The position numbers were made by a program, and so were the translations under genes. 32,000 nt of DNA. Origin: Candidatus Methanophagaceae archaeon. GTDB taxonomy: Archaea; Halobacteriota; Syntropharchaeia; Alkanophagales; Methanospirareceae. Position 1 is the stretch's first letter. Every line of letters begins with the position of its first letter. The stretch is taken from contig PQXB01000001.1 of assembly GCA_003194425.1 (NCBI GenBank), positions 220,444 through 252,443 on the forward strand. Direction: 5' to 3'. Shown piece after piece: positions 1 to 32,000 of this stretch. The notes under the pieces were generated by a model that did not search any database, was not told the origin of the DNA, and saw only the letters and a list, made by a program, of their open reading frames with translations.

Positions 1-739
1 CATTTCTCGCAGGTCCGAGCCCGCCCATCGTTATTCGGCTTCGGGTCTCGAGGTTGTCAAGAATCCGCTCGTAGCTCTCGGTCTTGACGAAACTACGCAC
101 GAACTTTTTTATTTTTTTAGATTCCGCCTCTATTTTCTTTGGCACGCTCCCGTAGCCTGCCTGCTCGTTAATTGCCTCCTTCGTCTTCTGAAGTAGCAGC
201 AGCGAGCCGAGTTCGTAAACATCGTTCATTATGCCGTGTTTCAGGAAACCGTTGGAGGAGTAGGGACGGTTCTCCCTGCCCTTCAGCTCGACCACGCAGC
301 CATAATTTTTCTCTGCGATTTTTCCGATCGAGGACTCGGTCTCCGAGACGATGGCGTTGATCGTAAATTTCTCGCTCCTCGTTCGCTCGATGTAGTCCGA
401 AAGTTGCTTAACCACGATTTTTGGCGTTGAGGTCTCGCCGCTGCCGGAATTAACGAGCAGTGCGATTTTGTCGTATTTCTTCTCCAAGACCGGCGCTGCC
501 TCGACGATGTCTCTGCCGGGGAAGTCGATGTCTACCATTGTTTTCACCGTCTTCTCTTTCATTTGCCCCATTCCGATGTACAACGCACTCTGCGACCTTC
601 CTTCGCCGACGAGGACGACGCAGTCCGCGGCGTTGAGGTCGTCGTAAAAAGCCCTGAACTCGCTGGGGTCGACGCTGCGAACATTTCGCGTTACTTTGTT
701 GAGGTAGCCTATTTTTCTCTCGTTTTCTCTTGGTGCCAT
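1..739 (-). CDS. SIS (phosphosugar isomerase/binding) domain protein, C-terminus off-window
   Basis: Not in the supplied track because it runs off the left edge. Hand translation from ATG at 739 gives MAPRENERKIGYLNKVTRNV...CVVLVGEGRSQSALYIGMGQM...KIALLVNSGSGETSTPKIV. The frame is open to position 1 and has a SIS-like SGSGET motif. Confidence 0.5.
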   Translation of the reverse strand, partial: MAPRENERKIGYLNKVTRNVRSVDPSEFRAFYDDLNAADCVVLVGEGRSQSALYIGMGQMKEKTVKTMVDIDFPGRDIVEAAPVLEKKYDKIALLVNSGSGETSTPKIVVKQLSDYIERTRSEKFTINAIVSETESSIGKIAEKNYGCVVELKGRENRPYSSNGFLKHGIMNDVYELGSLLLLQKTKEAINEQAGYGSVPKKIEAESKKIKKFVRSFVKTESYERILDNLETRSRITMGGLGPARN

Positions 740-796
740 AAGTTGCAAAAAAGAGGGCTTAACACTCTTTAAGACTTTCGGTTTTTTTCTATTTTT

Positions 797-2278
797 TTAA
801 TACGACCTTGCGATGTACACCCTCTTCCCGCCTCTCGCGCAAATTACGCATTTTCCTTCGCTTCCTCCCTTGCCCTCTCGTCCGCCTTCTTCTCTTTCTC
901 CGCCTTCCCCACTTTCTCCGCTTTTCCCCTCCGCCACTGCTCCTCTTTCTCCTCCTTCCCTGTTTTCCGCCACTGCCTCTCCCAACACACTCACTCCAAG
1001 CCGCTCCTCCACTTCCCGCCCGCACCGTTCTTGCCCGCAGAGGAACACGGAGGAAAAGCCGCGGAAAGCCGTTTTTGCTCGCTCGTGAATTTGGTCTTGG
1101 ATCTCGCTCAGCGCCCTCTTCACCTCCGAGACCACCTCGGCGAGTGGGACTTGTGTCCTCGAGAAGTCGTGCCTGCAGACGAGTTCGCAGCTCTTCGCCC
1201 TCAAATCCCGCGGACCGACCTCAACCCGCAACGGCACGCCCTTCAACTCCCACTTGAAATACTTCGCCCCCGGCCTCTCGTCCGAGTCGTCCAAAAGAAC
1301 CCGCACACCCGCCTCTTTCAACTCTTTGACCACACCAACGCCCGCCTGCAACACTTCTTCTGCACCCCCTTCTGCACCCCCTTCTGTACCGCTTCGCCCC
1401 CGCGAGTACAAAATCGGCACGACAACAACCTGCACGGGCGCGACCTCGGGAGGCAGCACCAGACCCCGCTCGTCGCCGTGCACCGAAATCACCGCGGCGA
1501 CGCACCGCTCTGAAATGCCGTAGCAGGTCTGGTTAACGAACTTCAGCGAGCCGTCTCGGTCCTCGAATTTTATCTCAAAAGTCCTCGCAAAACTCTCACC
1601 GAGCAGGTGAATTGTCGCAACCTGCAACGCCCGCCCGTCAGGCAGCAGCGTGTCAAACGCGAGGGTGTAGTCCGCCCCCGGGAACTTGTCCCACTCCGGC
1701 CGCCGCGTTACCAAGTAGGGAACTGCGAGTCGGTCGAAGAATTCTTTGTAAAGTGTGACCGCTTTCTTCACCTGCTCCTCCGCCTCGGCTCGGCTTGCGT
1801 GCACGGTGTGCGCCTCTTTGAACGAGGTGATTTCACGCAGCCGAATTAGCGGTCGCGTGTGCTTCGTCTCGTACCTGAAAGTGTTCACGATTTGGTAAAT
1901 CCGGAGCGGCAAGTCCCGGTGCGACCGAATCCAGACCTTAAACACAGGGTAAATCGCGGTCTCCGAAGTGGGGCGGAGTGCGAGAGGGACCTCCAACTCC
2001 GTGCTGCCTCCCTTCGTTACCCAAAAAACCTCCTCCTCAAACCCTTTTATGTGCTCCTTCTCCTTCAGCAACTCGTCCTCGGGAATCAAAAGCGGGAACA
2101 ACACTTCCTCGTGCTCCTCGTCCAAGAGCGACCGCAGAATCCCGTAAATCAGATTCCGCAGTTTGTAGCCGTGCGGAAACCACACGTACGCCCCCTTCAC
2201 CGGGTACCGCACGTCCAAAATCTCCGCCCGCTTCAAGATCTCGCTGTACCACTCACTGAAATCGCTTTTGCGTTCCAT
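797..2278 (-). CDS. proS: prolyl-tRNA synthetase, archaeal/eukaryotic type
   Basis: 493 aa ORF with class II aaRS signatures ([27 protein letters not shown]). The C-terminal Zn module ends in [18 protein letters not shown]. It also carries low-complexity inserts. Confidence 0.92.
1358..1392. repeat. 12-bp tandem repeat (ttctgcaccccc, about 3 copies) inside proS
   Basis: Read directly from the sequence. It encodes GGAEGGAE on the minus strand. Confidence 0.85.
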
Positions 2279-2296
2279 TTTCTTCTTGCGTTAGAG

Positions 2297-2368
2297 AGCC
2301 GCTGGTGGGACTTGAACCCACGCTCTGCTGATTACGAATCAGCCGCTTTACCTCTAAGCCACAGCGGC
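2297..2368 (-). tRNA. tRNA-Thr (anticodon CGU)
   Basis: Hand-folded cloverleaf: acceptor GCCGCTG/CAGCGGC, anticodon loop TTCGTAA, T-arm GTGGGTTCAAGTCCCAC. Confidence 0.85.
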
Positions 2369-2381
2369 GTAACTTTTAGAG

Positions 2382-2502
2382 ACTGACACTACTGACACTA
2401 GATTTAGTTTAGAATGTTTAGTTTAGAATGTTTAGTTTAGAATGCAACATTTAAATACTAACAGAACAATTAAAATCACAGGAACAATTGTAAATCACAG
2501 AA
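2382..2502. repeat. Three adjacent tandem duplications: 9 bp x2 (2382-2399), 14 bp x3 perfect (2403-2444), about 20 bp x2 (2461-2502)
   Basis: Units are actgacact x2, tttagtttagaatg x3, and cag(g)aacaatt(g/a)(t/a)aaatcacag x2. Together they fill the spacer between tRNA-Thr and the next gene. Confidence 0.85.
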
Positions 2503-2505
2503 AAA

Positions 2506-4317: not shown

Positions 4318-4345
4318 TCCAAAACAAGAAGTCCAAAACAAGAAG
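4318..4345. repeat. 14-bp perfect tandem duplication (tccaaaacaagaag x2)
   Basis: Read directly from the sequence. It ends 1 nt from the tRNA-Leu 3' end. Confidence 0.9.
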
Positions 4346-5139: not shown

Positions 5140-5976
5140 ATGGAAAAAAGCCTTAGACCGTTTGTTTTCATAAACGCGGCGACGAGTGCGGACGGTAAAA
5201 TCTCGACCGTAGAGCGGCGGCAGACGAGAATAAGCGGTAAGGAGGATTTTGAGCGGGTGGACTCGCTGAGGGCGGGGAGCGACGCAATAATGGTCGGTGT
5301 AGGCACGGTCTTGGCTGACGACCCTTCTTTGACTGTGAAAGCAGGAGCGAGGAGGGCAGCGAGGGCGAGGGCAGGGAAAGACGCAAATCCGCTGCGAGTC
5401 GTTGTGGACAGCAGGGCGAGGACTCCTCCTAATGCTGAGGTGCTGTGCAAAGGCGAGGGCAGGCGAATAATCGCGGTCTCTGAACTCGCGAACGCGGACG
5501 GCGAGAGAGTGGCGGAGTTGGGGAAGAGAGCGGAGGTTCTGGTCTGCGGGGGGAGCGGTGCTGCGGAGAGCGGTGCTGTGGAAAGCGGTGCTGCGGAAAG
5601 CGGTGCTGCAGGAGGAGGGGGGGGAGGAGGAGGGAAGGTGGATTTGGGGAAACTTCTCGCTCGGTTGCGGCAGCGGGGCGTGGAGAGACTGCTGGTTGAG
5701 GGAGGGGCGACACTTAACTGGTCGTTGATTTCGCAGGGGCTCGTCGACGAGATTTTTGTTTATGTGGGCAACCTGATTCTGGGCGGCGAAGACGCACCTA
5801 CGCTCGTTGACGGCGCGGGGTTCGTTGCGGGGGCAGGGGTGGTGAAGTTGGAACTCTTAAGTGCAGAGAGGCTGGGTGAGGGCGTTTTGCTAAAATGGCG
5901 GGTCGTGAGTGAGGGAGAAAGAGAAAAGGTCAGAGGGAAGGAGGGGAGCGCCGCGCAGTCAGGGCGCAAGGCGTGA
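5140..5976 (+). CDS. 2,5-diamino-6-ribosylamino-4(3H)-pyrimidinone 5'-phosphate reductase (RibD C-terminal domain family)
   Basis: FVFINAATSADGKIS...GSDAIMVGVGTVLADDPSLT...LLVEGGATLNWSL matches the RibD_C/archaeal reductase. It has an internal repeat insert, and its tail reads into a repeated cassette. Confidence 0.72.
   Translation: MEKSLRPFVFINAATSADGKISTVERRQTRISGKEDFERVDSLRAGSDAIMVGVGTVLADDPSLTVKAGARRAARARAGKDANPLRVVVDSRARTPPNAEVLCKGEGRRIIAVSELANADGERVAELGKRAEVLVCGGSGAAESGAVESGAAESGAAGGGGGGGGKVDLGKLLARLRQRGVERLLVEGGATLNWSLISQGLVDEIFVYVGNLILGGEDAPTLVDGAGFVAGAGVVKLELLSAERLGEGVLLKWRVVSEGEREKVRGKEGSAAQSGRKA
5554..5634. repeat. 15-bp tandem repeat x4 (agcggtgctgNggaN) followed by a G-rich run
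   Basis: Encodes SGAAESGAVESGAAESGAAGGGGGGGG inside the reductase. Confidence 0.85.
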
Positions 5977-6027: not shown

Positions 6028-6093
6028 GGTAAGGGCAAAAGCGGTAAGGGCAAAAGCGGTGAGGGCAAAAGCGGTGAGGGCAAAAGCAAAAGC
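6028..6093. repeat. 15-bp tandem repeat x4 (ggt[a/g]agggcaaaagc)
   Basis: Read directly from the sequence. The homologous position in cassette copy B holds a single unit. Confidence 0.9.
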
Positions 6094-6568
6094 AGTAGGC
6101 GCAAGTAACGCCGAAAGGGGAAAAAAGAGAGAAGGTGCGAGTAGCAGTAGCAGTGCTGCTGTCTGCGAGTGCGCAAGCAGCTGGAATTGGAGGAGGAGAA
6201 GAAGGTTTATTTATCATAAAATTAAGAAGGAGCAAAAGCAGAAAAGGGAAGAAGGAAGAAGGAGTGAAAGCGGAAGAGGAAGTAAAGTCGGAGGCTGCGG
6301 AAAGAAGGGAGAAGGAATAAGAGATAATGAGAGCGATAAAAGAGTTAAAGGAACTGAAGCGGAGGATAGAAGAGCGGGGGGAGAGTCTGTCCTCTGTCTC
6401 TGATGTTTTTATGGCTCAGGTTTTTACTCTTTCTAAAATGAGTGCGGTGAATAGAGGAATAGAAGGAGCTATGCTCTTTGTCGTAATATCTAATGTCTAT
6501 AATAATATCTAATGTTTAGTTATAAAATGCAAAAGAAAGAAATGTCTCACGCTCATCTTGTCCAGATG

Positions 6569-7597: not shown

Positions 7598-8019
7598 GCG
7601 GGGTGGTTCGAAAGAATGAGAATGGCGTTGCAGAGGTGGAAGTCGTGTCGGGCGGCAAAGCGGGCGGCAAAGCGGGCGACAAAAAAGGGTGCAACATTTT
7701 CGCAGTTTCGGAGTACCGTGCAGGAGCAGTAAAAGTGCTCCTAAGACCCGAGGAGGTGATTTTGTCTAAAAGAAGAAGTGGGGGAAAGGGAGAGAGCAGT
7801 GCAAGCAGTGCAAGCAGTGCAAGCAGCACGAGCAGTGCGAGGAATGCGGTTAAGGGGAAAATAGAAGAGCTAACCGATTTGGGTCCTTTGACGCGTGTTA
7901 GGACTGACGCCGGGCTTGTCGCTCTTGTTACGAAGCCGTCTCGTGAGAGTCTGGAGCTGCGAGAGGGGGACGAGGTTTTTGCGACTTTTAAAGCCACCTC
8001 GGTGCATTTGGTGCGGTGA
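7594..8019 (+). CDS. orphan TOBE-domain protein, apparently the C-terminal regulatory domain of a ModC/WtpC-type ABC ATPase with no ATPase domain
   Basis: LRPEEVILS...SARNAVKGKIEELTDLGPLTRVRTDAG...LVTKPSRESLELREGDEVFATFKATSVHL. The same frame upstream (7558-7593) reads EEIADFVGVENIL, the ATPase-TOBE linker. There is no in-frame ATG, only TTG or GTG. Confidence 0.5.
   Translation: MSGVVRKNENGVAEVEVVSGGKAGGKAGDKKGCNIFAVSEYRAGAVKVLLRPEEVILSKRRSGGKGESSASSASSASSTSSARNAVKGKIEELTDLGPLTRVRTDAGLVALVTKPSRESLELREGDEVFATFKATSVHLVR
7651..7680. repeat. 12-bp tandem repeat x2.5 (ggcggcaaagcg)
   Basis: Encodes GGKAGGKAGD. Confidence 0.85.
7795..7839. repeat. 9-bp tandem repeat x about 5 (agcagtgca)
   Basis: Encodes SSASSASSASSTSSA between the two TOBE halves. 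Confidence 0.85.
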
Positions 8020-8037: not shown

Positions 8038-8538
8038 ATGTTAGAGAAGGTGACCTACAAGCCAATCGGAATAATACACACGGGATTTCGGGACAAAAGA
8101 AATGCTCCAATTCAAGGCGTGTTTGCAAAAGACGCTAAGGGCGTGGTTGAGGTGTTCCCCGAATATGCAGAGGGGCTAAAAGACATCAAAGGCTTCTCAC
8201 ATCTTATCCTCCTTTACCATTTCCATCTCGCCGACGCCGACACCGAGAGCTACTCTTTAACCTCAAAGCCCTTTTTAGAAGACGAAGAGCACGGAATTTT
8301 CTCAATTCGGCATTTCAAGAGACCCAACCCAATCGGGCTGTCTGTGGTGCGGTTGGAGAGCGTGAGAGGGAATCGGCTGGAAATCCGCGAGGTTGACATC
8401 TTGGACGGGACACCACTCCTCGATCTAAAACCCTTTGTGCCGCGGTTTGACAACAGACTGGAAGCAAAGACCGGGTGGCTTGCGAATCCGAATTTGGACT
8501 GGGCTAAAGGTGAATCCGGAAAGCACAGAAGCGAGTAG
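8038..8538 (+). CDS. TsaA/YaeB (TrmO)-family SAM-dependent methyltransferase
   Basis: YKPIGIIHT...APIQGV...FSHLILLYHFH...RPNPIGLSVVRLESV...LEIREVDILDGTPLLDLKP. ATG at 8038 follows aggaggg. Confidence 0.75.
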   Translation: MLEKVTYKPIGIIHTGFRDKRNAPIQGVFAKDAKGVVEVFPEYAEGLKDIKGFSHLILLYHFHLADADTESYSLTSKPFLEDEEHGIFSIRHFKRPNPIGLSVVRLESVRGNRLEIREVDILDGTPLLDLKPFVPRFDNRLEAKTGWLANPNLDWAKGESGKHRSE

Positions 8539-8582
8539 GGCGTAGAACTAGTAGGGCGTAGAACTAGTAGAGCGTAGAACTT
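8535..8582. repeat. 16-bp tandem repeat x3 (gtagggcgtagaacta)
   Basis: Two perfect copies plus one variant, starting at the stop codon of the preceding gene. The unit length is not a multiple of 3. Confidence 0.9.
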
Positions 8583-12202: not shown

Positions 12203-12250
12203 TTTCGCTCTTTTTCTCCTCCTTCTTCTGTCTCTCTCTGTTTTTGTCTT

Positions 12251-12362
12251 TTACCTTATTTTCCCTTCCTTACCTTATTTTCCCCCTTATTTTCCCTTCC
12301 TTTTATTCTTTCTCCCTTTCCTTCTTTGTCTCGGCTCTTAAAATTGTCTCGGCTCTTAAAAA
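12251..12362. repeat. Pyrimidine-rich spacer with ttaccttattttccc repeats (12251-12300) and an 18-bp x2 repeat tgtctcggctcttaaaa(t/a) (12327-12362)
   Basis: Read directly from the sequence in the mptA/metV divergent intergenic region. Confidence 0.8.
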
Positions 12363-21031: not shown

Positions 21032-21034
21032 TTT

Positions 21035-21081
21035 TACCGCCACACCGTTACCGCCACACCGCACCGTTACCGCCACACCGT
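21035..21081. repeat. 14-bp tandem repeat (taccgccacaccgt) x3, the middle copy carrying a 5-nt insertion
   Basis: Lies between the hppA stop and the HisA-like start. Confidence 0.85.
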
Positions 21082-23219
21082 CACACCGGGAAGACGCAGT
21101 AAGCCACGAACAAGGACGAGAAGAGAATCGCGACCATCGTCATCGCCTTAATCAGCGGATTTATCGCAGGACCTGCAGTGTCTTTAAAAGGGTCACCGAC
21201 CGTGTCGCCAACGACCGCGGCTTTGTGTGCCTCGCTGCCTTTCCCGCCCAAGTAGCCGTCCTCAATCAGTTTCTTGGCGTTGTCCCACGCTGCACCGCCG
21301 TTCGCCATCATCAGTGCGAGCATCAAGCCCGAAATAATCACGCCAATTAGCAGCCCGCCGAGTGCAACCGGACCGAGCAGAAGCCCCACAGCCACCGGCA
21401 CGACGATCGCAATCAATCCCGGCACCACCATTTCACGCAGCGCCGCCGAAGTAACGATGTCCACGCACTTGCCGTACTCCGGTTTCGCGGTGCCGTCCCA
21501 AATGCCCGGAATCTCCTTGAACTGCCTTCTCACTTCTTCGACGACCTTGAACGCTCCCTTCCCTACCGCCCGCATCATCACGGAACTGAACAAGAAGGGA
21601 AGGAGACCGCCGAGCAGGAGTCCGACGAGCACGAGCGGGTTGAAGAGGCTGAACTCCTCCGCAGGCACGCCTACTTTGTGCAGGTAGTCAGAGAAGAGAG
21701 CTAAAGCCGCGATTGCCGCCGACGCGATTGCGTAGCCCTTTGTTACCGCTTTCGTGGTGTTTCCGACCGCGTCGAGCTTGTCGGTCGTCGCCCTGACCTC
21801 AGGAGGCAGGTCCGCCATCTCCGCAATCCCGCCCGCGTTGTCCGTAATCGGACCGTAGGAGTCGAGTGCGACGATAATTCCAGTGGTCGAGAGCATCGCG
21901 ACCGCGGCGATTGAAATCCCGTAAAGCCCGGCAATGCTCGCTGCTGCTCCGCCCCCGTCTGTCCCTCCCGTAGCCAAGAAAGGCACGAAGTAAGCGGCCA
22001 AAATCCCACCGCAAATTATCACGACCGGCAGCCCCGTAGACTGCATTCCTACCGCCAGACCTGTGATCAGATTCGTGCCAGCGCCTGTCTTGCTCGCGTC
22101 TGCAATTGAACGCACAGGGGCGTGCAGTTGCGTGAAGTATTCGGTGACGACGACCATTAAAGCCATAATTATTATTCCGACGACCGCTGAGACGAAGATT
22201 GAAATTCCGAACGGGTCGGTCCCGATTAACGCCGCGGTTACGGGGTAGAACAAAATTACGCTCAGCACCGAGGCTGTAGCAACGCCCTTGTAGAGCGTTT
22301 TCATAATGTCTCCGTGCTTCCCCATTCTGACTGCGAAGACCGCGACGATCGAGGCGAAGATCGCGACTGCTCCCAAGACCAGCGGGTACTCAATCGCGTG
22401 GACTGGGACTGCAAAACCTCCTGCCCCCGTTCCGCTTCCCCCCGTTCCGCTTCCTCCCTTCAACATCAAACCCCCGATTAGCATCGCTGCGATCGAAGTC
22501 ACAACATAAGTCTCAAACAGGTCGGCGCCCATTCCCGCGCAGTCGCCCACATTGTCGCCCACATTGTCCGCGATTACGCCTGCGTTTCGCGGGTCGTCCT
22601 CTGGAATCCCCGCCTCTACCTTGCCTACCAAGTCCGCACCGACGTCAGCGGCTTTTGTGTAAATCCCGCCGCCAACCCGTGCGAAAAGCGAAATCAGCGA
22701 GGCACCGAAGCCGTAGCCCACGACGAGGTCGACTGCGTGCGAGTCGCCGCCGAAGAGAATGTAGAGGCAGCTCGTCCCGAGCAGTGCGAGCCCCACGACT
22801 GCGAGTCCTGTTACCGCACCGCCGCGGAACGCGATCGTGAGTGCCCTGCGAACTCCTGACGAAGCGGCTTGAGCAACGCGGACGTTCGCCCTCGTCGAGA
22901 CGAACATTCCGATGTAGCCCGCTGCGGCGGAGCAGACCGCACCAGCCAAGAAACCCGCTGCGACCCTGCCCGAGTCGAAGAACCCGCCCGCGAAACCGCC
23001 TGAAAGAGCAACGAACAAGACCGCTGCGACCACGACTGCGACGACGCTGACGGTCTTGTACTGCCTCTTCAAGTAAGCGGCTGCTCCCTCTTGAACCGCC
23101 TCCGAGATTGCGTTCATCTTCTCGCTGCCCTTCTCCTGCCTGAGCGTCTGTGCAGCGAAGACCGCTGCGAACGTCAAACTTACGAGCCCTGCAACCGGCG
23201 CCAAGAATAACAAGTCCAT
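21081..23219 (-). CDS. hppA: membrane-bound H+-translocating pyrophosphatase
   Basis: 712 aa polytopic protein with [63 protein letters not shown] and GGAWDNAKK. Confidence 0.95.
22426..22455. repeat. 15-bp tandem duplication (cccgttccgcttccc x2)
   Basis: Encodes [11 protein letters not shown] within the PPase. Confidence 0.85.
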
Positions 23220-23493: not shown

Positions 23494-23527
23494 AAACAAC
23501 CACGAAGCGTTTTTGGTCAAACTTTTC

Positions 23528-24103
23528 TTAAAAGTTTGTTCTTAAAAGTTTGTTCTTCTCCTTCCGCTCCACCTTCACCTCCTCCACCCGAGTGTGCGGG
23601 TAATTCCCTGTCTCGTCCTTCTCCTCCTGCTTTACCATATCCCAAACCGTGAGCAACGCCACACTCACGCCGTGCAGCGCCTCCATTTCTACGCCCGTCT
23701 TTCCAACCGACTTCACCGTTACCACCGCCCTCACTTCCCGCTCCTCCCCCTGCTCTCCCTGCTCCCCCTCCTCCTCGCCCACCGAAAATTCAACCTTCAC
23801 CGCCTCAATATTTATCGGGTGGCAGAGCGGAATCACACTCGGCGTTTTTTTCACCGCCAACACCGCCGCCGTCTCTGCACTCCCAAGCACATTTCCCTTC
23901 TCTACACGCCCGCTTTTAATCTTTTCGAGAGTGCTGCCCTTCAATTTTATCCTGCCCGAGGCTACTGCTACTCGCTCAACCTCTTCTTTCCCGCTAATGT
24001 CCACCATTCTACTGCTGCTGCTACTGCTACTGCTGCTACTGCTACTGCTACTACCACCGCCACCGCCTCCGCCACTGCTCGCACCTTGACCTTGCCGATT
24101 CAT
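23528..24103 (-). CDS. moaC: cyclic pyranopterin monophosphate synthase accessory protein MoaC
   Basis: MVDISGKEEVERVAVASG...KGNVLGSAETAAVLAVKKT..IPLCHP...KTGVEMEALHGVSVALLTVWDM. The real start may be ATG 24007, which would exclude the poly-Gly/Ser extension. Confidence 0.85.
   Translation of the reverse strand: MNRQGQGASSGGGGGGGSSSSSSSSSSSSSSRMVDISGKEEVERVAVASGRIKLKGSTLEKIKSGRVEKGNVLGSAETAAVLAVKKTPSVIPLCHPINIEAVKVEFSVGEEEGEQGEQGEEREVRAVVTVKSVGKTGVEMEALHGVSVALLTVWDMVKQEEKDETGNYPHTRVEEVKVERKEKNKLLRTNF
24011..24073. repeat. Trinucleotide repeat tract (gct/act, then acc/gcc)
   Basis: Encodes G7-S14 on the minus strand if translated. Confidence 0.9.
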
Positions 24104-27430: not shown

Positions 27431-27490
27431 CTCCTCTTTCTGCTCCTCTTTCTGCTCCTCTTTCTGCTCCTCTTTCTGCTCCTCTTCTTC
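27431..27490. repeat. 12-bp tandem repeat, 4 perfect copies plus 1 variant (ctcctctttctg)
   Basis: Intergenic, directly upstream of the GT2 start. It is followed by ttctcaca(c)tttt x2. Confidence 0.9.
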
Positions 27491-27521
27491 TCACTCTTTT
27501 TCTCACACTTTTTCTCACACC

Positions 27522-27530
27522 TTTATATAG
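27522..27530 (+). promoter_or_regulatory. TATA box (tttatatag)
   Basis: About 110 nt upstream of ATG 27638, with the same ...tatagaag context as 6662-6675. Confidence 0.3.
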
Positions 27531-28261: not shown

Positions 28262-28287
28262 AGGGGGTTTTTCTTTTTTATCCCCCT
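28262..28287 (+). terminator. Hairpin AGGGGG-(T-rich loop)-CCCCCT followed by T-rich repeats
   Basis: 6-bp stem at 28262-28267/28282-28287; cgtttatttt x2 follows. Confidence 0.35.
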
Positions 28288-28320
28288 CGTTTATTTTCGT
28301 TTATTTTTCTATTTTTAAAC

Positions 28321-28348
28321 CAACCGTTACAAAACAACCGTTACAAAA
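28321..28348. repeat. 14-bp perfect tandem duplication (caaccgttacaaaa x2)
   Basis: Read directly from the sequence, just 3' of tRNA-Glu. Confidence 0.9.
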
Positions 28349-29011: not shown

Positions 29012-30376
29012 CTACACTGCGCCCTCTGCCTCTGCCTCTACCTCTGCCTCTGCCTCTACCTCTGCCTCTGCCTCTACCTCTGCTCCTGCCTCTGCGCCTG
29101 CCCCTGCTCCACGCCACTGCTCCTGAGCCTGCGTAGCGAAATTCGCCAACGCCTTCTTAAGCGCGCTCAAGCCCGAACTGCGAAGGAAAAAGCAGGGCTT
29201 GTTCCGCAGTTTGCACGCCTCCTTGACCAGCCTGCAGGCGTTGTGGCTGTTTATGTCAATCGGGCAGAAGACGACATCAATTTTTTCCACGAGATTCTCA
29301 ATCCCCCTCCTCCCCCGCTCGCAGTGCCCGCAGTGGTAGCAGAAGGCGCAGCCGAAAGATTGTGCGACCTCCTCGTAGCACGACTCAAGCGACTCCACTC
29401 CGCCGACGTAAGCCACTCGCGTGTCTTTGAGATTGAGATTAAGATTGAAATTCGGCGCAACTTTACACTCGTTCACTGCCGCCGCGGGCGCCGCTGTTGG
29501 CGCGGGTTCTGAAGCGAAGATTTTTACCAACTCCGCGTTCTCCTTGTTCAGCCGCTTCATTTCTTCTCTCAACGCCTGAATCTCTGTTCTCATCGCCCCA
29601 ACCCGTTCAACCTGCTCAAAGACCGCTTCCCCGCCCAACTTCGCCACCTTCCTCCGCAACTCCTCGCTCTCCCGCCTCTGCTCCGCCAACTCCTGAACGA
29701 GCCTGCTCTTCTCCGCTCTAACCGCCTCTCGCTCGGAAATTAGCTCTTCCCTCTTCTGCTCCAGCCGTTTAAAATTGCGTTGCAGTTTTTCGTTTGTTTC
29801 TAAAGCCGTTCTCAGCTCCTCAACCACATTTTCCACCTTCTTTCCTCCTGGCAGCCTGCGAGAGAGTTCGTCGTAAAACCGCAGAGCCTGCTGCTCTTTT
29901 AGAGAGACCGCAGAGGAGAGCCTCGTCGCGATTTCGTTGCTCTTGTTGCTTTGCTCTTTGCCGTTTCCGTTGCGTGCCGCGTTGCGTGCCGCGTTGCGTG
30001 CCGCGAACCAGAGCAGAGCGGAGAGAGGAACTGCTCTAAACCCGTTTGCCCCGTTTTCCGTTTCAATAAACTCGCAAATTTCTTCGGGGTCTGCCCACCC
30101 GACTTCCTTCTTGTAGGGGGCGAACTTCTTTTCAAGCAGTTTTTCCACTCGCTTGGCGTGCTGGCTCGGCGTCCTGCAGACCTGCGCCAAATTCTGCTGC
30201 ATTTCAAGTGCCGTTAAAAACTGCGTGCTGCTGCTACTGCTCCTGCTGCCACCGCCGTTGCTAAGTTTCAACTCTTTAAAGACACGCTTCAGTCCTGCTT
30301 CGTCAAAGCTCAAGCCCAGGATTTTAGAGGACATAAAAGACGGGAACTCCCAAATCCTCTTTCTCTTTGCGTTCAT
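29012..30376 (-). CDS. DUF2325-domain protein with a central coiled coil and a Cys-rich motif
   Basis: C-terminus: RVAYVGG...CAFCYHCGHCE...IDVVFCPIDINSHNACRLVKEACK..KPCFFLRSSGLSAL (DUF2325 pattern). Residues of about 185-285 are heptad-like and E/R/K-rich. The gene holds several tandem-repeat inserts. Confidence 0.6.
   Translation of the reverse strand: MNAKRKRIWEFPSFMSSKILGLSFDEAGLKRVFKELKLSNGGGSRSSSSSTQFLTALEMQQNLAQVCRTPSQHAKRVEKLLEKKFAPYKKEVGWADPEEICEFIETENGANGFRAVPLSALLWFAARNAARNAARNGNGKEQSNKSNEIATRLSSAVSLKEQQALRFYDELSRRLPGGKKVENVVEELRTALETNEKLQRNFKRLEQKREELISEREAVRAEKSRLVQELAEQRRESEELRRKVAKLGGEAVFEQVERVGAMRTEIQALREEMKRLNKENAELVKIFASEPAPTAAPAAAVNECKVAPNFNLNLNLKDTRVAYVGGVESLESCYEEVAQSFGCAFCYHCGHCERGRRGIENLVEKIDVVFCPIDINSHNACRLVKEACKLRNKPCFFLRSSGLSALKKALANFATQAQEQWRGAGAGAEAGAEVEAEAEVEAEAEVEAEAEGAV
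29028..29081. repeat. 18-bp tandem repeat x3 perfect (gcctctgcctctacctct) with degenerate flanks (29023-29110)
   Basis: Encodes AEVEAEAEVEAEAEVEAE at the C-terminus. Confidence 0.9.
29429..29452. repeat. hexamer repeat x4 (gagatt/aagatt/gaaatt)
   Basis: Encodes NFNLNLNL. Confidence 0.8.
29969..30004. repeat. 12-bp tandem repeat x3 perfect (gttgcgtgccgc)
   Basis: Encodes AARNAARNAARN. Confidence 0.9.
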
Positions 30377-30597: not shown

Positions 30598-30695
30598 TAC
30601 ATATAAAAACACATATAAAATAAGAAAATTAGGCACACAAATAGCAACCCCTAAAAATCTTTGGTCTGTTAAAGCAAGCCCAAATAAGTTCGGTT

Positions 30696-31184
30696 TTAGT
30701 GAGAGAACCGAAGCCCTTTCCCTTTTTTTTCCCGCCGCCGCTCTCCAGGTTTGCAGGAATGCACCCCAGTCGCGCAGAAAATCTCAAAATGCTTCAGCCA
30801 CTGTGGATAATCTGGCGCCGACTGCACAAACCTTACCAAATTCTTTATCTGCTCAATCGTCTTCGCTTCCAACTCGTGCTCAATTATGCAGGCGTCTTTG
30901 TCCGCCGTCTCCTTCGGCACATTGATAATTTCCAGAAACGCCCTTATAATTTCGTGCCGGTCCCTCACAATTTCTGCTATTTCTTTTCCCTTTGGTGTTA
31001 AGGTAACGCCGTCGTACTTGCGATAAATAACGAGACTCTTGTCGTCCAGTTTCTTTGCCATTTCTACAGCGCTCGCAGGCGTAACGCTCAAAGCTCGTGC
31101 AATGTCCCTTATCCTCGCGTAGCCCTTCTGCTCCGAGATGTTCAGAATCGCCTCGAGGTAGTCCTCCGCTTTTCTTGTCAGCAT
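30696..31184 (-). CDS. DtxR/MntR-family metal-dependent transcriptional repressor
   Basis: AEDYLEAIL...GYARIRDIARALSVTPASAVEMAKKLD...LTPKGKEIAEIVRDRHEIIRAFL...DACIIEHEL. Confidence 0.8.
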   Translation of the reverse strand: MLTRKAEDYLEAILNISEQKGYARIRDIARALSVTPASAVEMAKKLDDKSLVIYRKYDGVTLTPKGKEIAEIVRDRHEIIRAFLEIINVPKETADKDACIIEHELEAKTIEQIKNLVRFVQSAPDYPQWLKHFEIFCATGVHSCKPGERRREKKGKGLRFSH

Positions 31185-31185
31185 A

Positions 31186-31210
31186 CCTAATATTGTTAGG
31201 GTAGCCCTTA
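31186..31210. promoter_or_regulatory. Overlapping palindromes CCTAA-tattg-TTAGG and TTAGGGTAGCCCTTA next to the repressor start; candidate auto-operator
   Basis: Read directly from the sequence. It sits between tttaaata (31209-31216, minus-strand TATA) and ATG 31184. Confidence 0.35.
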
Positions 31211-31262
31211 TTTAAATTTTCAATTTGAACTTCAAAGATTGTTACCGCTTTGACTTAGAATT

Positions 31263-31280
31263 ATTGTCGAAAACGACAAT
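31263..31280. promoter_or_regulatory. Palindrome ATTGTCG-AAAA-CGACAAT upstream of the PQQ-repeat gene
   Basis: Perfect 7+4+7 palindrome, extendable to about 12-bp arms with 2 mismatches. A further palindrome, TTTGAA-c-TTCAAA, lies at 31224-31236. Confidence 0.3.
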
Positions 31281-31312
31281 TATTTAAAGATAAATTTATT
31301 TTAAAATTAAAA

Positions 31313-32000
31313 ATGAAAAAAATAGGAAAATTATCGGTTGTTAGTGTTCTTTGCGCGTTTGTTTTTGTGAGTGTCCTGCTACTAACTGCAGCAGTGCCAG
31401 CGTCGGCAACTTCGTCGGCAACTTCGTCGGCAACTTACCCGACGCTTCAGTACGACGCACAGCGAACTGGGAACGTGGGCGGTGCTGCACCAGAAACCGC
31501 CTCTCTGCTGTGGCAGTCGGGCGAGAAGACCGCAGGCTGCGTGCAAGCAGGTCCGGTTGTCTTGGACGGCAGGGTCTTTTTCACTACTTGGTGGTCGGGA
31601 GGAATGGGAGTTGAGGGGAACGCCAGCGACGCTCTCTACTGCCTCGACGAGGAGACGGGTGAGGAGGTTTGGAACAACACCGCAGTCTTCGGCGCTTCTA
31701 CTGCGGCGGTCGCAGCGGCAGAAGGGAAGTTGTTTGTGGGCACGCACCGCGGGAATTTCACTTGCGTTGACACCACGAGTGGCGAGATTTTGTGGAGCAG
31801 GCGGGTAGAAGAGAACCCGTCGTGGTACGGAGTTGGATCTTCTCCGCTCGTCTTTGACGGGACGGTCTTTGTGCTAACCTTCTCGGACGGCACGCTGCAC
31901 GCCTTCTCTTTCGAGGGTGCAGAACTCTGGAACTTCTCCACAGGTGAGGAAATATTTAAGTACGCGTCGCCCTCCGCTTACGAGGACAAAATCTTCTTCG
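31313..32000 (+). CDS. secreted PQQ-like beta-propeller repeat protein, C-terminus off-window
   Basis: Not in the track because it runs off the right edge. Hand translation: MKKIGKLSVVSVLCAFVFVSVLLLTAAVPASATSSATSSATYPTLQYDAQRTGN...VVLDGRVFF...LYCLDEETGEEVW...GKLFVGTHRGNFTCVDTTSGEILW...PLVFDGTVFV. Confidence 0.6.
   Translation, partial: MKKIGKLSVVSVLCAFVFVSVLLLTAAVPASATSSATSSATYPTLQYDAQRTGNVGGAAPETASLLWQSGEKTAGCVQAGPVVLDGRVFFTTWWSGGMGVEGNASDALYCLDEETGEEVWNNTAVFGASTAAVAAAEGKLFVGTHRGNFTCVDTTSGEILWSRRVEENPSWYGVGSSPLVFDGTVFVLTFSDGTLHAFSFEGAELWNFSTGEEIFKYASPSAYEDKIFF
31402..31437. repeat. 12-bp tandem repeat x3 (gtcggcaacttc)
   Basis: Encodes ATSSATSSAT right after the signal peptide. Confidence 0.9.

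What the first reader, a model, noticed from the sequence alone, without database searches (positions are those of the whole stretch)
1..32000. Very dense near-perfect short tandem repeats, strictly 3n inside housekeeping genes but not between genes
By hand I found more than 35 tandem-repeat loci in 32 kb, each with 2-6 copies and mostly 100% identical. Every locus inside a CDS has a unit of 6, 9, 12, 15 or 18 bp. These add in-frame peptide repeats to otherwise conserved proteins: ProRS, class I LysRS, agmatinase, H+-PPase, MoaC, UDP-sugar dehydrogenase, DUF1015, the riboflavin reductase, the PMI fusion, the ABC-2 permease, the GT-C enzyme, DUF2325 and the PQQ protein. Intergenic loci include units of 14 bp (2403, 4318, 21035, 28321), 16 bp (8535) and 17 bp (14262). 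That contrast points to frame-preserving selection acting on a general repeat-generating process. Most encoded repeats are G/E/A/S/R/K/Q-rich, but some are not: KWCES x3, FKVRG x3, GEF x5, and IAILL x2 inside a TM segment. Perfect copies imply recent or ongoing expansion. Perfect genic and intergenic tandem repeats of this kind have been described for Borg extrachromosomal elements of Methanoperedens. This window, however, is core chromosome (aaRS genes, tRNAs, a ribosomal protein), is visibly GC-rich and has genes on both strands. The phenomenon therefore appears to operate on a host genome.
Basis: partly seen in the sequence, partly recalled or inferred. Interest (0 to 1): 0.85.

Follow-up and report, generated by a model that had tools for sequence, protein, structure and literature searches.

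The report
Hypervariable short tandem repeats, ANME-1 chromosome
A heat-vent methane-oxidising archaeon (ANME-1 group) carries short, mostly near-perfect tandem duplications throughout its ordinary chromosome, including inside essential enzymes. Their copy numbers differ between almost identical strains, a pattern so far described mainly for the giant "Borg" elements of a different archaeon.

Summary
The window holds 37 perfect tandem repeats (at least 24 nt; 1.16/kb), against 0 in Markov simulations and 0.015-0.022/kb in 1.1 Mb of related archaeal loci. TRF arrays scoring 50 or more run at 1.34/kb against 0.07/kb.

All 21 perfect repeats inside genes have 3n units. Of the 16 outside genes, 7 have units of 14, 16 or 17 nt.

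The window is chromosomal DNA of an isolated Methanophagales (ANME-1) lineage from hydrothermal samples. Its LysRS has no relative between 71% and 99% identity.

Twelve public contigs of the same species are 99.0-99.99% identical to the window and five more are 100% identical. In the differing contigs, 43 of 49 distinct indels fall in repeat arrays. Of the genic indels 25 of 26 are 3n; of the intergenic ones 5 of 23 are (p = 8e-8).

The repeats are lineage-specific insertions: five in LysRS, mapping to low-confidence or loop segments of an AlphaFold model. An unlinked 21.7-kb locus of the same organism has 0.74 repeats/kb.

Best reading: an ongoing process across at least these two loci that duplicates 9-22 nt in tandem and then expands or contracts the arrays, filtered by frame- and structure-preserving selection. 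The enzymology is unknown. It resembles Borg repeats but sits on a cell's chromosome, and I found no prior description.

The parts
1357..1390 (-). 12-nt unit x2.8 inside ProRS, encoding EGGAEGGAE
   Evidence: Pfam
2403..2444 (.). 14-nt unit x3.0, perfect, intergenic between tRNA-Thr and UPF0058. L085 has 2 copies and is otherwise identical apart from 1 SNP in 6.9 kb.
4318..4345 (.). 14-nt unit x2.0, perfect, between the CTP-RFK start and a probably intron-containing tRNA
5553..5634 (+). 15-nt unit x4.1 (ESGAA) followed by a GGA/poly-Gly run, inside the RibD_C reductase
6028..6104 (.). 15-nt unit x4.0 (97% matches) downstream of RibD_C, outside any supported gene
7649..7683 (+). 12-nt unit x2.9 (GGKA) in the TOBE protein
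7795..7838 (+). 9-nt unit x4.9 (SSA) in the TOBE protein
8534..8581 (.). 16-nt unit x3.0 starting in the last codons of TrmO and running into the spacer
10293..10344 (+). 6/9/12-nt units (GAG/GAGA) in the 817-aa PMI-like protein; L096 has +6 nt
10832..10876 (+). 15-nt unit x3.0, perfect (FKVRG x3), in the PMI-like protein; L096 has 2 copies
12249..12410 (.). Cluster of intergenic arrays in the divergent MptA/MetV spacer (units 10/12, 18 and 11/22 nt); strain indels of +7, +14 and +1 nt
13232..13326 (.). GA-rich array (units 2/13/15/17 nt) between MetV and MetF; changes of +/-2 nt between strains
14252..14344 (.). 17-nt unit x3.8 (97% matches) between the convergent MetF and PUA genes; -31 nt in L081, -10 and -14 nt in L096. 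One of three loci meeting the Borg criterion.
15620..15723 (-). 12-nt unit x5.7 (QEQG) in the UDP-sugar dehydrogenase; alleles of -33, -45 and -6 nt
16181..16204 (.). 12-nt unit x2.0, perfect, in the spacer between DUF1015 and the UDP-sugar dehydrogenase
16623..16741 (-). Three adjacent arrays in DUF1015: 6-nt x5.3 (EN), 15-nt x3.3 (KWCES) and 9-nt x2.8 (VEK); -18 nt in L081, L096 and L097
17871..17966 (+). 9-nt unit x8.6 (GEF/GGF) in agmatinase; +9 nt in L096. Part of it is an insertion relative to PDB 3pzl.
18263..18340 (+). 12- and 15-nt units (GRSER) in agmatinase; +24 nt in L081, -15 nt in L097
18688..18768 (+). 12/36-nt units (EKRG type) forming a 27-aa N-terminal insertion in LysRS; -24 nt in L081. 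pLDDT is below 50 for residues 29-43.
19882..19926 (+). 12-nt unit x3.8 (ESEE) in LysRS; one unit fewer in L096, L097 and P0001. Orthologues have only EENEE at this site.
21034..21088 (.). Overlapping 14-nt x2 and 19-nt x2 perfect repeats between H+-PPase and the HisA-like gene; -5 nt in L081
22424..22458 (-). 15-nt unit x2.3 (GGSGT) within a 17-aa insertion after a transmembrane segment of H+-PPase, judged against PDB 8b37
22542..22568 (-). 12-nt unit x2.25 encoding DNVGDNVGD, the conserved H+-PPase motif. It is not an insertion and is listed as a false member of the set.
23525..23557 (.). 14-nt unit x2.4 straddling the MoaC stop codon
24009..24075 (-). 6/9/15/21-nt units (poly-Ser/Gly) in the MoaC N-terminal extension or 5' leader; -9 nt in L086
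24385..24426 (.). 21-nt unit x2.0, perfect, 5 nt upstream of the ABC-2 start and including an AAGGAG motif; single copy in L086
25114..25150 (+). 9-nt unit x4.1 (GLG) in the ABC-2 permease; -9 nt in L086
25301..25331 (+). 15-nt unit x2.07 (IAILL x2) in the hydrophobic N-terminal segment of the GT-C enzyme (first transmembrane helix inferred from the sequence, not predicted); single copy in L086 and L087
25867..25898 (+). 15-nt unit x2.1 (TQNAE) in the GT-C enzyme
27431..27524 (.). 12-nt unit x5.8 plus 12-nt x3.4 immediately upstream of the GT2 start; units contain GAGGAG on the gene strand. Alleles of -24 and -36 nt. Meets the Borg criterion.
28287..28348 (.). 10-nt x2.1 and 14-nt x2.3 repeats beside tRNA-Glu. 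The 10-nt unit is single-copy in four strains; -13 nt in L088.
29023..29107 (-). 6/18-nt units (AEVEAE) in the C-terminal tail of DUF2325; at least five alleles (-60, -9, -3, +3, +9 nt). Meets the Borg criterion.
29427..29452 (-). 6-nt unit x4.3 (LN) in DUF2325; -6 nt in four strains
29968..30005 (-). 12-nt unit x3.2 (AARN) in DUF2325; -12 nt in L094
31401..31436 (+). 12-nt unit x3.0 (ATSS) just after the hydrophobic N-terminal (apparent signal) segment of the PQQ beta-propeller protein

Best explanation
The window is ordinary chromosomal DNA of an isolated, GC-rich lineage of Methanophagales (ANME-1), sampled repeatedly from public metagenomes and enrichment-type read sets; the hydrothermal origin is inferred from record names. 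In this lineage a frame-blind mutational process keeps creating tandem duplications of about 9-22 nt, often with no flanking microhomology. It then expands and contracts the resulting arrays by whole units.

The most likely route is strand slippage or misalignment during replication or repair, but this step is inferred.

Purifying selection then filters the output. In intergenic DNA any unit length survives and arrays are about 6 times denser. In genes only in-frame units survive, at sites that tolerate an insert: loops, linkers, termini and the last codons. Point mutation then slowly degrades arrays, which gives the observed spread from perfect to 70% identity.

The visible results are variable-number repeats between strains, flexible low-complexity inserts in otherwise conserved housekeeping proteins, and short-read assemblies that break at the repeats.

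Shown here: the density, the frame contrast, the strain polymorphism, the lineage specificity, the structural location in LysRS and occurrence at a second locus. Inferred: the molecular mechanism, that the trait is truly genome-wide, and that most inserts are neutral or tolerated rather than adaptive.
For: Density far above chance and above relatives.

Frame contrast in standing repeats: 21/21 genic against 9/16 non-genic are 3n. TRF arrays at score >=40: 31/31 against 10/24.

Frame contrast in strain indels: 25/26 genic against 5/23 intergenic are 3n, p = 8e-8. The single genic exception is a 14-nt duplication 19 nt before a stop codon. An assembler cannot produce this contrast, so the differences are biological.

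Location of variation: 43 of 49 indel events and 40% of SNP positions fall in arrays that cover 9.7% of the sequence.

Turnover: 1 SNP against 1 unit change in 6.9 kb, and 5 SNPs against 2 unit changes in 12.8 kb.

Births seen as polymorphisms (1 copy against 2) at 24385, 25301, 28287, 11068 and 18263.

Microhomology: 17 of 37 perfect repeats have an integral copy number with <=2 nt of extra match.

Independent origins: unit sequences are unique apart from one pair of overlapping registers of a single array and one identical low-complexity 12-mer shared by two genes.

Lineage specificity: none of the LysRS orthologues inspected at 47-71% identity carries the window's repeats, although one (P0081) has low-complexity inserts at two of the same sites, and there is no relative between 71% and 99%. 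Another ANME-1 lineage (L098) has 0.07/kb.

Structure: pLDDT below 50 at residues 29-43 of the EKRG insert and 487-490 of the GRGKGE insert, and the ESEE region is coil. The H+-PPase and agmatinase repeats align as gaps against solved homologues.

Second locus: 16 perfect repeats in 21.7 kb, tetranucleotide correlation 0.975 with the window against <=0.51 for other archaea.

Chromosomal nature: Pfam content, tRNAs, mixed strands, and the MptA-MetV-MetF-LysRS neighbourhood shared with ANME-1 locus L011.
Against: Only about 58 kb of the genome was examined, and the repeats are patchy: about 5.5 kb at the left edge has none.

No reads were mapped. Copy numbers in short-read assemblies can be wrong, which the Borg authors also warn about (PMC9879509), so individual alleles are less certain than the overall pattern.

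No replication or repair gene was examined, so slippage is an inference. The lack of microhomology at many two-copy repeats does not fit classical slippage between short direct repeats.

The 3n fraction of standing non-genic repeats (9/16) is above one third. This could mean unannotated small ORFs or a process that favours 12- and 15-nt units.

Genic repeats are purine-rich (0.71 against 0.574; 0 of 2000 resamples reach it). That could be a mechanistic bias rather than selection, although intergenic units show no such excess.
Confidence: 0.8

Rival explanations
1. The repeats are kept mainly because they are useful. Genic repeats would be positively selected to create new disordered regions. 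Intergenic repeats would act as tunable regulatory elements in promoters, ribosome-binding sites or ncRNAs, like contingency loci. This is what was proposed for Borg repeats.
For: Several intergenic arrays sit 3-12 nt from start codons and duplicate Shine-Dalgarno-like motifs: 24385-24426 before ABC-2 and 27431-27524 before GT2. Genic repeats are enriched in G, E, A, S and Q and lie in flexible segments. Multiple alleles segregate at DUF2325, the UDP-sugar dehydrogenase and LysRS.
Against: The targets are a cross-section of housekeeping enzymes (aaRS, cofactor synthesis, H+-PPase), not surface or regulatory proteins. Some repeats are biochemically odd: KWCES, FKVRG, and IAILL in a hydrophobic N-terminal segment. 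Arrays are 6 times denser where there is no coding constraint. Intergenic indels are 3n at the neutral rate. Arrays also lie between convergent gene ends, where no promoter is expected (14252-14344). No functional data exist. This reading is compatible with the main explanation as a secondary layer.
Confidence: 0.12
2. The window is part of a Borg-like giant extrachromosomal element of an ANME-1 host that has captured many host genes. The repeats would then be an element-specific trait, not a chromosomal one.
For: The repeat characteristics match Borg repeats closely (PMC9879509). Borgs can carry host-like translation and metabolic genes (bioRxiv 10.64898/2026.05.22.727314). No rRNA or replication origin was seen in the window.
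Against: About 28 of roughly 36 protein genes have Pfam housekeeping assignments, whereas Borgs encode mostly hypothetical proteins. There are five tRNA genes for different amino acids (four from ARAGORN, plus an Rfam hit at 4347-4455). Genes switch strand more than a dozen times, whereas Borgs code on one strand per replichore. GC is 53%. The MptA-MetV-MetF-LysRS neighbourhood is shared with an ANME-1 chromosome. Unique essential genes such as ProRS and LysRS are roughly equidistant (64-71%) from all other ANME-1 genomes, as expected for vertical descent. The unlinked locus carries the A-ATPase, TFB, CTP synthase and diphthamide synthase. The genes lie on a 1.19-Mb contig deposited as a MAG of Methanospirareceae/Methanophagales.
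Confidence: 0.05
3. The repeats or their copy-number differences are assembly or sequencing artefacts.
For: Short-read assemblers can collapse or mis-count tandem units (PMC9879509). Several public contigs end inside arrays. One contig carries adapter sequence at its end.
Against: Contigs assembled from two sequencing runs (Logan SRR6664617 and SRR6664622) reproduce the arrays base for base over 5.3, 4.4, 2.9 and 2.9 kb, and over 6.9 kb apart from 1 SNP and one missing 14-nt unit at 2403. Most arrays are about 24-100 nt, shorter than reads and than the k = 141 implied by the k141 contig names. The arrays are in frame in 21 of 21 genes. The genic/intergenic contrast in indel length (p = 8e-8) cannot arise from an assembler.
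Confidence: 0.02
4. The inserts are ancient, static low-complexity regions typical of the clade or of thermophile proteins.
For: A few other ANME-1 LysRS proteins have low-complexity inserts at similar sites (P0081, P0093). Many arrays here are imperfect.
Against: Fourteen of 43 arrays are perfect at the nucleotide level and ten more are 95-99%. Copy number varies among strains that are 99.0-99.99% identical. Relatives have 50-75 times fewer perfect repeats. None of the orthologues inspected carries the window's repeat units.
Confidence: 0.01

Closest known systems
Tandem repeats of Borg extrachromosomal elements of Methanoperedens (Schoelmerich et al. 2023, PMC9879509; Al-Shayeb et al. 2022)
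   Same: Both have short, perfect or near-perfect tandem direct repeats scattered through genes and spacers, with nearly unique unit sequences. Genic units are always 3n and intergenic units mostly are not (Borg 14-38% 3n; here 22% of intergenic indels and 35% of TRF >=50 arrays). Copy number varies between close genomes, the repeats are absent from homologues, and the encoded repeats are disorder-prone. Some arrays start in the last codons of a gene. By the Borg criterion (>=50 nt, >=3 perfect units) density is similar: 3 loci and 0.56% of 32 kb here, against a mean of 46 per 829 kb and 0.62%.
   Different: This replicon is a cellular chromosome of a different order (ANME-1): GC 53% against about 33%, genes on both strands, and housekeeping gene content. 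The bias is towards G and purines rather than A, and it is not seen in intergenic units. Arrays are shorter (mostly 2-5 copies of 9-21 nt). Targets include essential cytoplasmic enzymes rather than mainly extracellular or membrane proteins. The Borg-specific PolB9 hypothesis could not be examined here.
Satellite-rich archaeal genomes such as Methanosarcina (Subirana & Messeguer 2019, PMC6749651)
   Same: These are archaeal chromosomes with unusually many short tandem repeats. Many units are 3n and code for amino-acid repeats, and the paper attributes the birth of satellites to anomalies of DNA replication.
   Different: The highest reported density is 89 satellites/Mb (by a different definition), whereas here there are about 1,300 TRF arrays/Mb or about 1,150 perfect loci/Mb. 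That survey did not report strain-level copy-number variation or systematic insertion into conserved enzymes. I could not run a like-for-like comparison on a Methanosarcina genome.
Low-complexity and tandem-repeat insertions in housekeeping proteins of Plasmodium falciparum and Dictyostelium (own knowledge; see also PMC3140889)
   Same: A genome-wide mutational tendency adds in-frame repeats to otherwise conserved proteins, including aminoacyl-tRNA synthetases. The inserts lie in surface loops, and polymorphism is raised in and near them.
   Different: Those are eukaryotes with AT-rich genomes and Asn/Gln/Lys-rich inserts, and recombination contributes. Here the genome is a GC-rich archaeal one with G/E/A/S-rich inserts.
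Bacterial VNTRs and contingency loci (Neisseria, Haemophilus, Mycobacterium MIRU-VNTR; own knowledge, and reviewed in the discussion of PMC9879509)
   Same: Unit gain and loss by slippage produces strain-level copy-number variation, and some repeats sit in promoter or 5' regions.
   Different: Contingency loci are few, lie in surface or restriction genes, and often use non-3n units to switch genes on and off. Here the repeats are pervasive, lie in housekeeping genes, and are strictly frame-preserving.
Duplication mutator phenotype of flap-endonuclease (rad27/FEN1) mutants in yeast (own knowledge)
   Same: There is genome-wide accumulation of short tandem duplications of tens of nucleotides, which offers a candidate class of mechanism (faulty Okazaki-flap processing).
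   Different: The rad27 duplications are flanked by 3-12-bp direct repeats, whereas 17 of 37 repeats here have <=2 nt of extra match. No FEN1 or other replication gene of this organism was examined.

Membership tests
Borg-type tandem repeats (the phenomenon defined in PMC9879509) | Perfect tandem direct repeats (>=3 units, >=50 nt) at a density far above that of related genomes | tested here: met
   Three such loci in 32 kb (0.56% of the sequence), against a Borg mean of 0.62% and Methanoperedens at <=0.01%. With a looser definition there are 37 loci, against 0.015-0.022/kb in controls.
Borg-type tandem repeats (the phenomenon defined in PMC9879509) | All genic units divisible by three; most intergenic units not | tested here: met
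   Genic 21/21 are 3n. Non-genic: 9/16 of perfect repeats, 6/17 of TRF >=50 arrays and 5/23 of intergenic strain indels are 3n.
Borg-type tandem repeats (the phenomenon defined in PMC9879509) | Fast evolution: unit number varies between or within closely related populations, and indels are confined to repeat regions | tested here: met
   43 of 49 indel events between contigs that are 99.0-99.99% identical lie in arrays. Within-sample read-level variation was not testable.
Borg-type tandem repeats (the phenomenon defined in PMC9879509) | Unit sequences essentially unique per locus (independent origin) and absent from homologues | tested here: met
   Only one identical 12-mer pair among the 37 units. 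LysRS and CTP synthase orthologues lack these repeats.
Borg-type tandem repeats (the phenomenon defined in PMC9879509) | Adenine enrichment of units on the coding strand, in genic and intergenic repeats alike | tested here: not met
   Genic units are G-rich (G 44%, A 28%; purine 0.71 against 0.574 background). Intergenic units do not differ from the intergenic background (p = 0.37).
Borg-type tandem repeats (the phenomenon defined in PMC9879509) | Encoded amino-acid repeats are disorder-promoting and predicted to be disordered | tested here: met
   The repeats are enriched in G, E, A, S and Q. Two LysRS inserts (EKRG, GRGKGE) contain segments with pLDDT below 50; the ESEE and LESLE sites score about 74-76. 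Exceptions exist (KWCES, FKVRG, IAILL). Only one protein was modelled.
Borg extrachromosomal element (the replicon) | Linear element of about 0.6-1.1 Mb with terminal inverted repeats, all genes on one strand per replichore, low GC, mostly hypothetical genes, and a Methanoperedens host | tested here: not met
   Genes lie on both strands with many switches, GC is 53%, and most genes have housekeeping Pfam assignments. The nearest relatives are Methanophagales. Termini were not testable.
Phase-variable contingency loci (bacterial SSRs) | Repeats whose unit changes shift the reading frame or promoter spacing so as to switch specific, usually surface, genes | tested here: not met
   Genic unit changes never shift the frame except in the last 6 codons of one gene. 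The targets are housekeeping genes. Effects on promoters or ribosome-binding sites were not testable.
CRISPR array | Direct repeats of 24-40 nt separated by unique spacers of similar length | tested here: not met
   All arrays are head-to-tail with no spacers, and units are 6-36 nt.
Methanophagales (ANME-1) chromosome | MetF/MetV (MTHFR) in place of Mer; housekeeping genes whose nearest relatives are in ANME-1 genomes; local synteny with ANME-1 | tested here: met
   MTHFR and DUF5981 genes are adjacent. MetF is 88.6% identical to ANME-1 locus L011, and MptA-MetV-MetF lie near LysRS in both. The top LysRS hits carrying a source name are mostly Methanophagales or Methanospirareceae. Identical MetF and DtxR proteins are deposited under ANME-1/Methanophagales/Methanospirareceae MAG names. 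Mcr genes and rRNA are not in the window.

The most novel reading that the evidence does not exclude
A free-living archaeal lineage (thermophilic ANME-1) has an ongoing short-tandem-duplication mutator state across its own chromosome, as dense as or denser than in Borgs. It is continually creating new, strain-variable peptide inserts in essential enzymes. If so, Borg-type repeats are not an element-specific invention. They would be a cellular replication or repair phenotype that can arise independently, possibly through a specific change in polymerase, flap processing or repair that comparative genomics of this lineage could identify.
Probability: 0.55. Interest if true: 0.8.

Novelty: new variant of a known kind. 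Interest (0 to 1): 0.72.

Why it matters
Pervasive perfect tandem repeats with 3n-only units in genes have been treated as a hallmark of Borg elements and as 'virtually absent' from cellular host genomes. That hallmark has been used to recognise Borg DNA and to argue that a Borg-encoded polymerase makes the repeats.

1. Mechanism. Finding the same pattern, at equal or higher density, on the chromosome of an unrelated methane-oxidising archaeon shows that the process does not need a Borg.

2. A tractable natural system. Public records of the same species include what appear, from their names, to be enrichment-culture read sets and a 1.19-Mb contig. They could be used to find the responsible replication or repair defect.

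3. Protein evolution. The data show new disordered segments arising in essential proteins such as aminoacyl-tRNA synthetases and H+-PPase, with many alleles already segregating.

4. Practical consequences. These repeats break short-read assemblies, which probably explains why this lineage is poorly represented in reference sets. Repeat content alone should not be used to classify a contig as extrachromosomal.

Tried and rejected
1. Purine or A-bias as a mechanistic signature. Genic units are purine-rich, but intergenic units do not differ from the intergenic background, so I attribute the bias to selection on tolerated residues.

2. A conserved motif at duplication boundaries (a nick or recognition site). 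The 24 integral-copy repeats from the window and L099 show no convincing positional signal.

3. Microhomology-mediated origin. Extra matching bases are <=2 nt in 17 of 37 loci, about what chance gives.

4. Known RNA families in the intergenic arrays. Rfam at gathering thresholds finds only tRNAs.

5. Locating the source genome in the GTDB species representatives through LysRS. The best hit is only 70% identical. The lineage is either absent or its LysRS contig was lost.

6. Accession searches in the paper library (SRR6664617, SRR6664622, JBTNFB, 3300021468) found nothing. Searches for tandem repeats together with ANME-1, Methanophagales or Guaymas found no description of this phenomenon.

7. 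Another long-LysRS ANME-1 lineage (P0081, L098) as a second repeat-rich genome. It has only 0.07 perfect repeats/kb.

8. Synteny-based orthologue sets for all window proteins from the 80 LysRS loci. Only L011 shares neighbours, so insertion status was tested by alignment only for LysRS, H+-PPase, agmatinase and, at the second locus, CTP synthase.

9. My simple test for whether an indel equals its flank under-calls multi-unit changes in imperfect arrays, so I used overlap with TRF arrays instead.

Full report

Tandem Repeats Finder at score >=30 returns 123 rows. These merge into 83 arrays covering 9.7% of the window, and 43 of them score >=50 and cover 6.5%. A scan of my own for perfect repeats (unit 4-60 nt, at least 2 copies, at least 24 nt) finds 37 loci, or 1.16 per kb and 4.1% of the window.

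Thirty second-order Markov simulations of the window gave none. The same scan on 80 LysRS-centred loci from other archaea gave 3 loci in 139 kb for ANME-1 relatives and 15 in 981 kb for Methanothrix, Methanoperedens, Methanocella and others. That is 0.022 and 0.015 per kb. By TRF at score >=50 the window has 1.34 arrays per kb against 0.07 per kb in controls, and the highest single control locus has 0.33 per kb. The enrichment is therefore 20- to 75-fold depending on the metric.

Of the 43 stronger arrays, 14 are perfect, 10 are 95-99% identical, 12 are 85-94% and 7 are below 85%. 'Mostly 100% identical' therefore overstates things a little: there is a spread of ages.

**2. Gene map and the frame contrast**

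Gene calls on overlapping public contigs added UPF0058, an 84-aa membrane protein, Sec61-beta and a 53-aa ORF. The two window ends carry a SIS-like gene and a PQQ beta-propeller gene.

With this map, all 21 perfect repeats inside genes have units of 9, 12, 15 or 18 nt. The 16 outside genes, or straddling a stop codon, have units of 12-21 nt, including 14 nt (five times), 16 nt and 17 nt; 9 of the 16 are 3n (Fisher p = 0.001). Taking the best TRF row per array at score >=40, genic arrays are 31/31 3n and non-genic arrays 10/24. The only genic non-3n rows are five chance-level matches scoring 30-34. Repeats are 5.7 times denser in non-coding DNA (4.2 per kb) than in coding DNA (0.74 per kb).

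**3. What organism and what replicon?**

The MetF/MetV pair is the ANME-1 replacement for Mer (PMC9894754). LysRS is 64-71% identical to its best hits; those that carry a source name are mostly Methanophagales or Methanospirareceae. It is 55-57% identical to Alkanophagales and about 50% to Methanothrix and Methanoperedens. In a database of 5.8 billion proteins there is one cluster at 99% identity and nothing between 99% and 71%, so this lineage is isolated.

Exactly identical MetF and DtxR proteins are deposited under the names 'ANME-1 cluster archaeon ex4572_4', 'Methanophagales archaeon' and 'Candidatus Methanospirareceae archaeon'. They also lie on a contig of 1,187,124 nt.

MptA, MetV and MetF lie within a few kb of LysRS both here and in ANME-1 locus L011, where MetF is 88.6% identical. 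The window has 53% GC, genes on both strands with many switches, four tRNAs by ARAGORN plus one probably intron-containing tRNA by Rfam, and mostly housekeeping genes. This is a chromosome, not a Borg-like element.

**4. Are the repeats recent and variable?**

Exact-protein look-ups retrieved 17 public contigs overlapping the window. They come from NCBI MAGs or metagenome assemblies (GCA_054799305.1, GCA_029935835.1), JGI metagenomes (3300021468, 3300005264), ENA assemblies (ERZ1742239, ERZ27227318, ERZ27227320, ERZ27245762, ERZ27248407) and Logan assemblies of SRR6664617, SRR6664622 and SRR21545386. Outside one diverged gene they are 99.0-100% identical to the window.

Four Logan contigs from two runs are 100% identical over 5.3, 4.4, 2.9 and 2.9 kb, including all their arrays, which excludes an assembly artefact. 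Their ends fall inside arrays (for example positions 16688, 17925, 21063 and 23240), showing that short-read assemblies break there.

Pooling the pairwise alignments gives 49 distinct indel events. Forty-three lie in TRF arrays that cover 9.7% of the sequence (p = 2e-37), and 40% of SNP positions lie there too. Many events are exact single units:
- the 14-nt unit at 2403;
- the 15-nt FKVRG unit at 10832;
- the 12-nt ESEE unit at 19882;
- the 21-nt unit at 24385;
- the 15-nt IAILL unit at 25301;
- the 10-nt unit at 28287;
- the 12-nt AARN unit at 29968.

Genic events are 3n in 25 of 26 cases. The exception is a 14-nt duplication 19 nt before the stop codon of the PMI-like gene. Intergenic events are 3n in 5 of 23 cases, close to the neutral one third (Fisher p = 8e-8). 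An assembler knows nothing about reading frames, so this contrast shows that the differences are biological and filtered by selection.

Turnover is fast relative to point mutation. Contig L085 differs from the window over 6.9 kb by one SNP and one repeat unit. At the second locus two contigs differ over 12.8 kb by five SNPs and two unit changes.

**5. Are they lineage-specific insertions, and where do they sit in proteins?**

I aligned the window LysRS with 11 orthologues. The window protein has five private inserts: a 27-aa EKRG-type N-terminal insert, GE, LESLE, ESEEESEE (next to an ancestral EENEE) and GRGKGE. None of the 11 aligned orthologues has them, although one other ANME-1 protein (P0081) has low-complexity G/E-rich inserts at two of the same sites. 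The window protein is 570 aa, whereas nearly all hits are about 505-510 aa. Three length alleles exist within the species: 570, 566 and 562 aa.

An AlphaFold model built with 56 sequences has a mean pLDDT of 87.7. Its only segments below 50 are residues 29-43 (the EKRG repeat), 487-490 (GRGKGE) and the C-terminal tail. The ESEE region is coil with pLDDT of about 74.

Against the Pyrobaculum H+-PPase structure (8b37), [11 protein letters not shown] lies within a 17-aa gap after a transmembrane segment. By contrast DNVGDNVGD aligns with the same conserved motif in 8b37, so that 'repeat' is ancient. Against agmatinase 3pzl, the GEF and GRSER repeats coincide with alignment gaps.

**6. Is it genome-wide?**

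I searched with the CTP synthase of another ANME-1 genome and found one homologue (P0172) with private repeats: QLEQLEQ, EVEAEAEVEA, FDGFDGF and VHGVHGVHG. Its contigs (L099-L101; ENA ERZ27248118 and ERZ27227317, JGI 3300021503) have 52-53% GC. Their tetranucleotide correlation with the window is 0.97, the same as for contigs that overlap the window, whereas every other archaeal locus scores <=0.51.

This unlinked 21.7-kb locus carries the A-ATPase, a ClpB-like protein, TFB, CTP synthase and diphthamide synthase. It has 16 perfect repeats, or 0.74 per kb. So the trait holds at two separate loci, about 58 kb in total. It is patchy, however: window 1-1350 and the 4.2 kb to its left have none. 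A different ANME-1 lineage (L098) has 0.07 per kb, so the trait is lineage-specific.

**7. Mechanistic clues**

Units range from 6 to 36 nt, with modes at 12 and 15 nt in genes and 14 nt between genes. Unit sequences are unique apart from one pair of overlapping registers of a single array and one identical low-complexity 12-mer shared by two genes, which argues for independent origins.

Seventeen of the 37 perfect repeats have an integral number of copies with <=2 extra matching bases, about what chance gives. Several of these are polymorphic as 1 copy against 2. New duplications therefore often arise without flanking microhomology, which is not what classical slippage between short direct repeats, or the yeast rad27 phenotype, would give. 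Later unit gain and loss fits slippage well.

No boundary motif was found. Genic units are purine- and G-rich on the coding strand (0.71 against 0.574, with 0 of 2000 resamples reaching that value) and encode G, E, A, S and Q. Intergenic units are no more strand-asymmetric than the intergenic background (p = 0.37). I therefore attribute the bias to which inserts proteins tolerate. The enzymology remains unknown, because no replication or repair gene lies in the sequence I could reach.

**8. Comparison with what is known**

The closest match is the Borg repeat phenomenon (PMC9879509). Both share perfect repeats, unique units, 3n-only genic units, mostly non-3n intergenic units (14-38% 3n in Borgs), variable unit number, absence from homologues and disordered inserts. 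By the Borg authors' own criterion (>=50 nt, >=3 perfect units) the window has 3 loci covering 0.56% of its length. Borgs average 46 per 829 kb and 0.62%, and Methanoperedens genomes have 1-4 per genome (<=0.01%).

The differences are the replicon (a cellular chromosome of another order), the base bias (G and purine rather than A, and not in spacers), shorter arrays, and housekeeping targets.

Subirana and Messeguer (PMC6749651) showed that some archaeal chromosomes, notably Methanosarcina, are satellite-rich, up to 89 per Mb by their definition. The general idea of repeat-rich archaeal chromosomes is therefore not new, but that density is an order of magnitude lower, and strain-variable inserts in conserved enzymes were not described. 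From my own knowledge, Plasmodium falciparum offers a eukaryotic analogue: low-complexity inserts in housekeeping proteins.

Full-text searches combining tandem repeats with ANME-1, Methanophagales or Guaymas found no description of this trait. A 2026 paper on ANME-1 genomic hotspots mentions tandem repeats only in its methods.

**9. Verdict**

I classify the finding as a new variant of a known kind: Borg-like hypervariable tandem repeats operating on a cell's own chromosome.

The main uncertainties are these:
- only about 58 kb was examined;
- no reads were mapped;
- the mechanism is inferred;
- an unpublished or unsearchable description may exist, for example accompanying the recent 1.19-Mb assembly.

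Noticed in passing
window 4347-4455 (-) and 23299-23372 (+): Rfam finds a 109-nt tRNA, probably intron-containing, at 4347-4455 that ARAGORN missed. Conversely, ARAGORN's tRNA-Pro at 23299-23372 is not in the Rfam gathering-threshold list.
   Followed up: no
window 11110-11185 / 11162-12202 (-): The last 24 nt of the MptA (GCHY-1) ORF overlap the 5' part of tRNA-Met on the same strand. The true MptA stop codon or tRNA boundary may differ from these calls.
   Followed up: no
window 27638-28219 (+); locus L089: One strain (ENA ERZ27227318) carries a strongly diverged allele of this secreted hypothetical protein, with many indels and substitutions, in an otherwise roughly 99% identical background. 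This looks like a local hotspot of divergence or recombination that is unrelated to the tandem repeats.
   Followed up: partly
window 22542-22568 (-): The conserved H+-PPase motif DNVGDNVGD is encoded by a perfect 27-nt nucleotide repeat in which both halves use identical codons. This could be chance, or homogenisation by the same slippage process.
   Followed up: partly
window 10313-10344 (+ gene) and 15637-15679 (- gene): The same 12-mer unit (AGGAGCAGGGGC, or its reverse complement) forms arrays in two unrelated genes and is read in different frames (GAGA against QGQE). It is the only unit shared between different loci in the window.
   Followed up: no
loci L083, L084, L093, L095 (ends at window 16688, 17925, 21063, 23240, 29054, 29086): Short-read contigs of this species end inside repeat arrays. 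The lineage's LysRS is absent from the GTDB species representatives that were scanned. The repeats probably fragment assemblies and depress MAG quality for this lineage.
   Followed up: partly
locus L086, last ~60 nt: The contig end translates to 'SYTHLRAHETSLHLV', the signature of Nextera adapter read-through in a public assembly.
   Followed up: no
locus L085 positions 6882-11124 and window 1-1350: A stretch of about 5.5 kb (SIS protein, PS decarboxylase, a HinfI-like protein, PCMT, a KH protein) has no perfect tandem repeat, in contrast to the rest of the window. Repeat density is patchy for reasons I did not find.
   Followed up: partly
locus L099 1-1572: At the unlinked locus of the same organism, the A-type ATPase catalytic subunit contains an intein with a LAGLIDADG domain.
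   Followed up: no
proteins P0081 (L098), P0093, P0151/P0155: A few other ANME-1 and related lineages have isolated low-complexity inserts at the same LysRS or CTP synthase sites (for example GGEGEGKGKGE and GQKGKGKGKD). However, the one contig I checked has ordinary repeat density (0.07/kb).
   Followed up: partly
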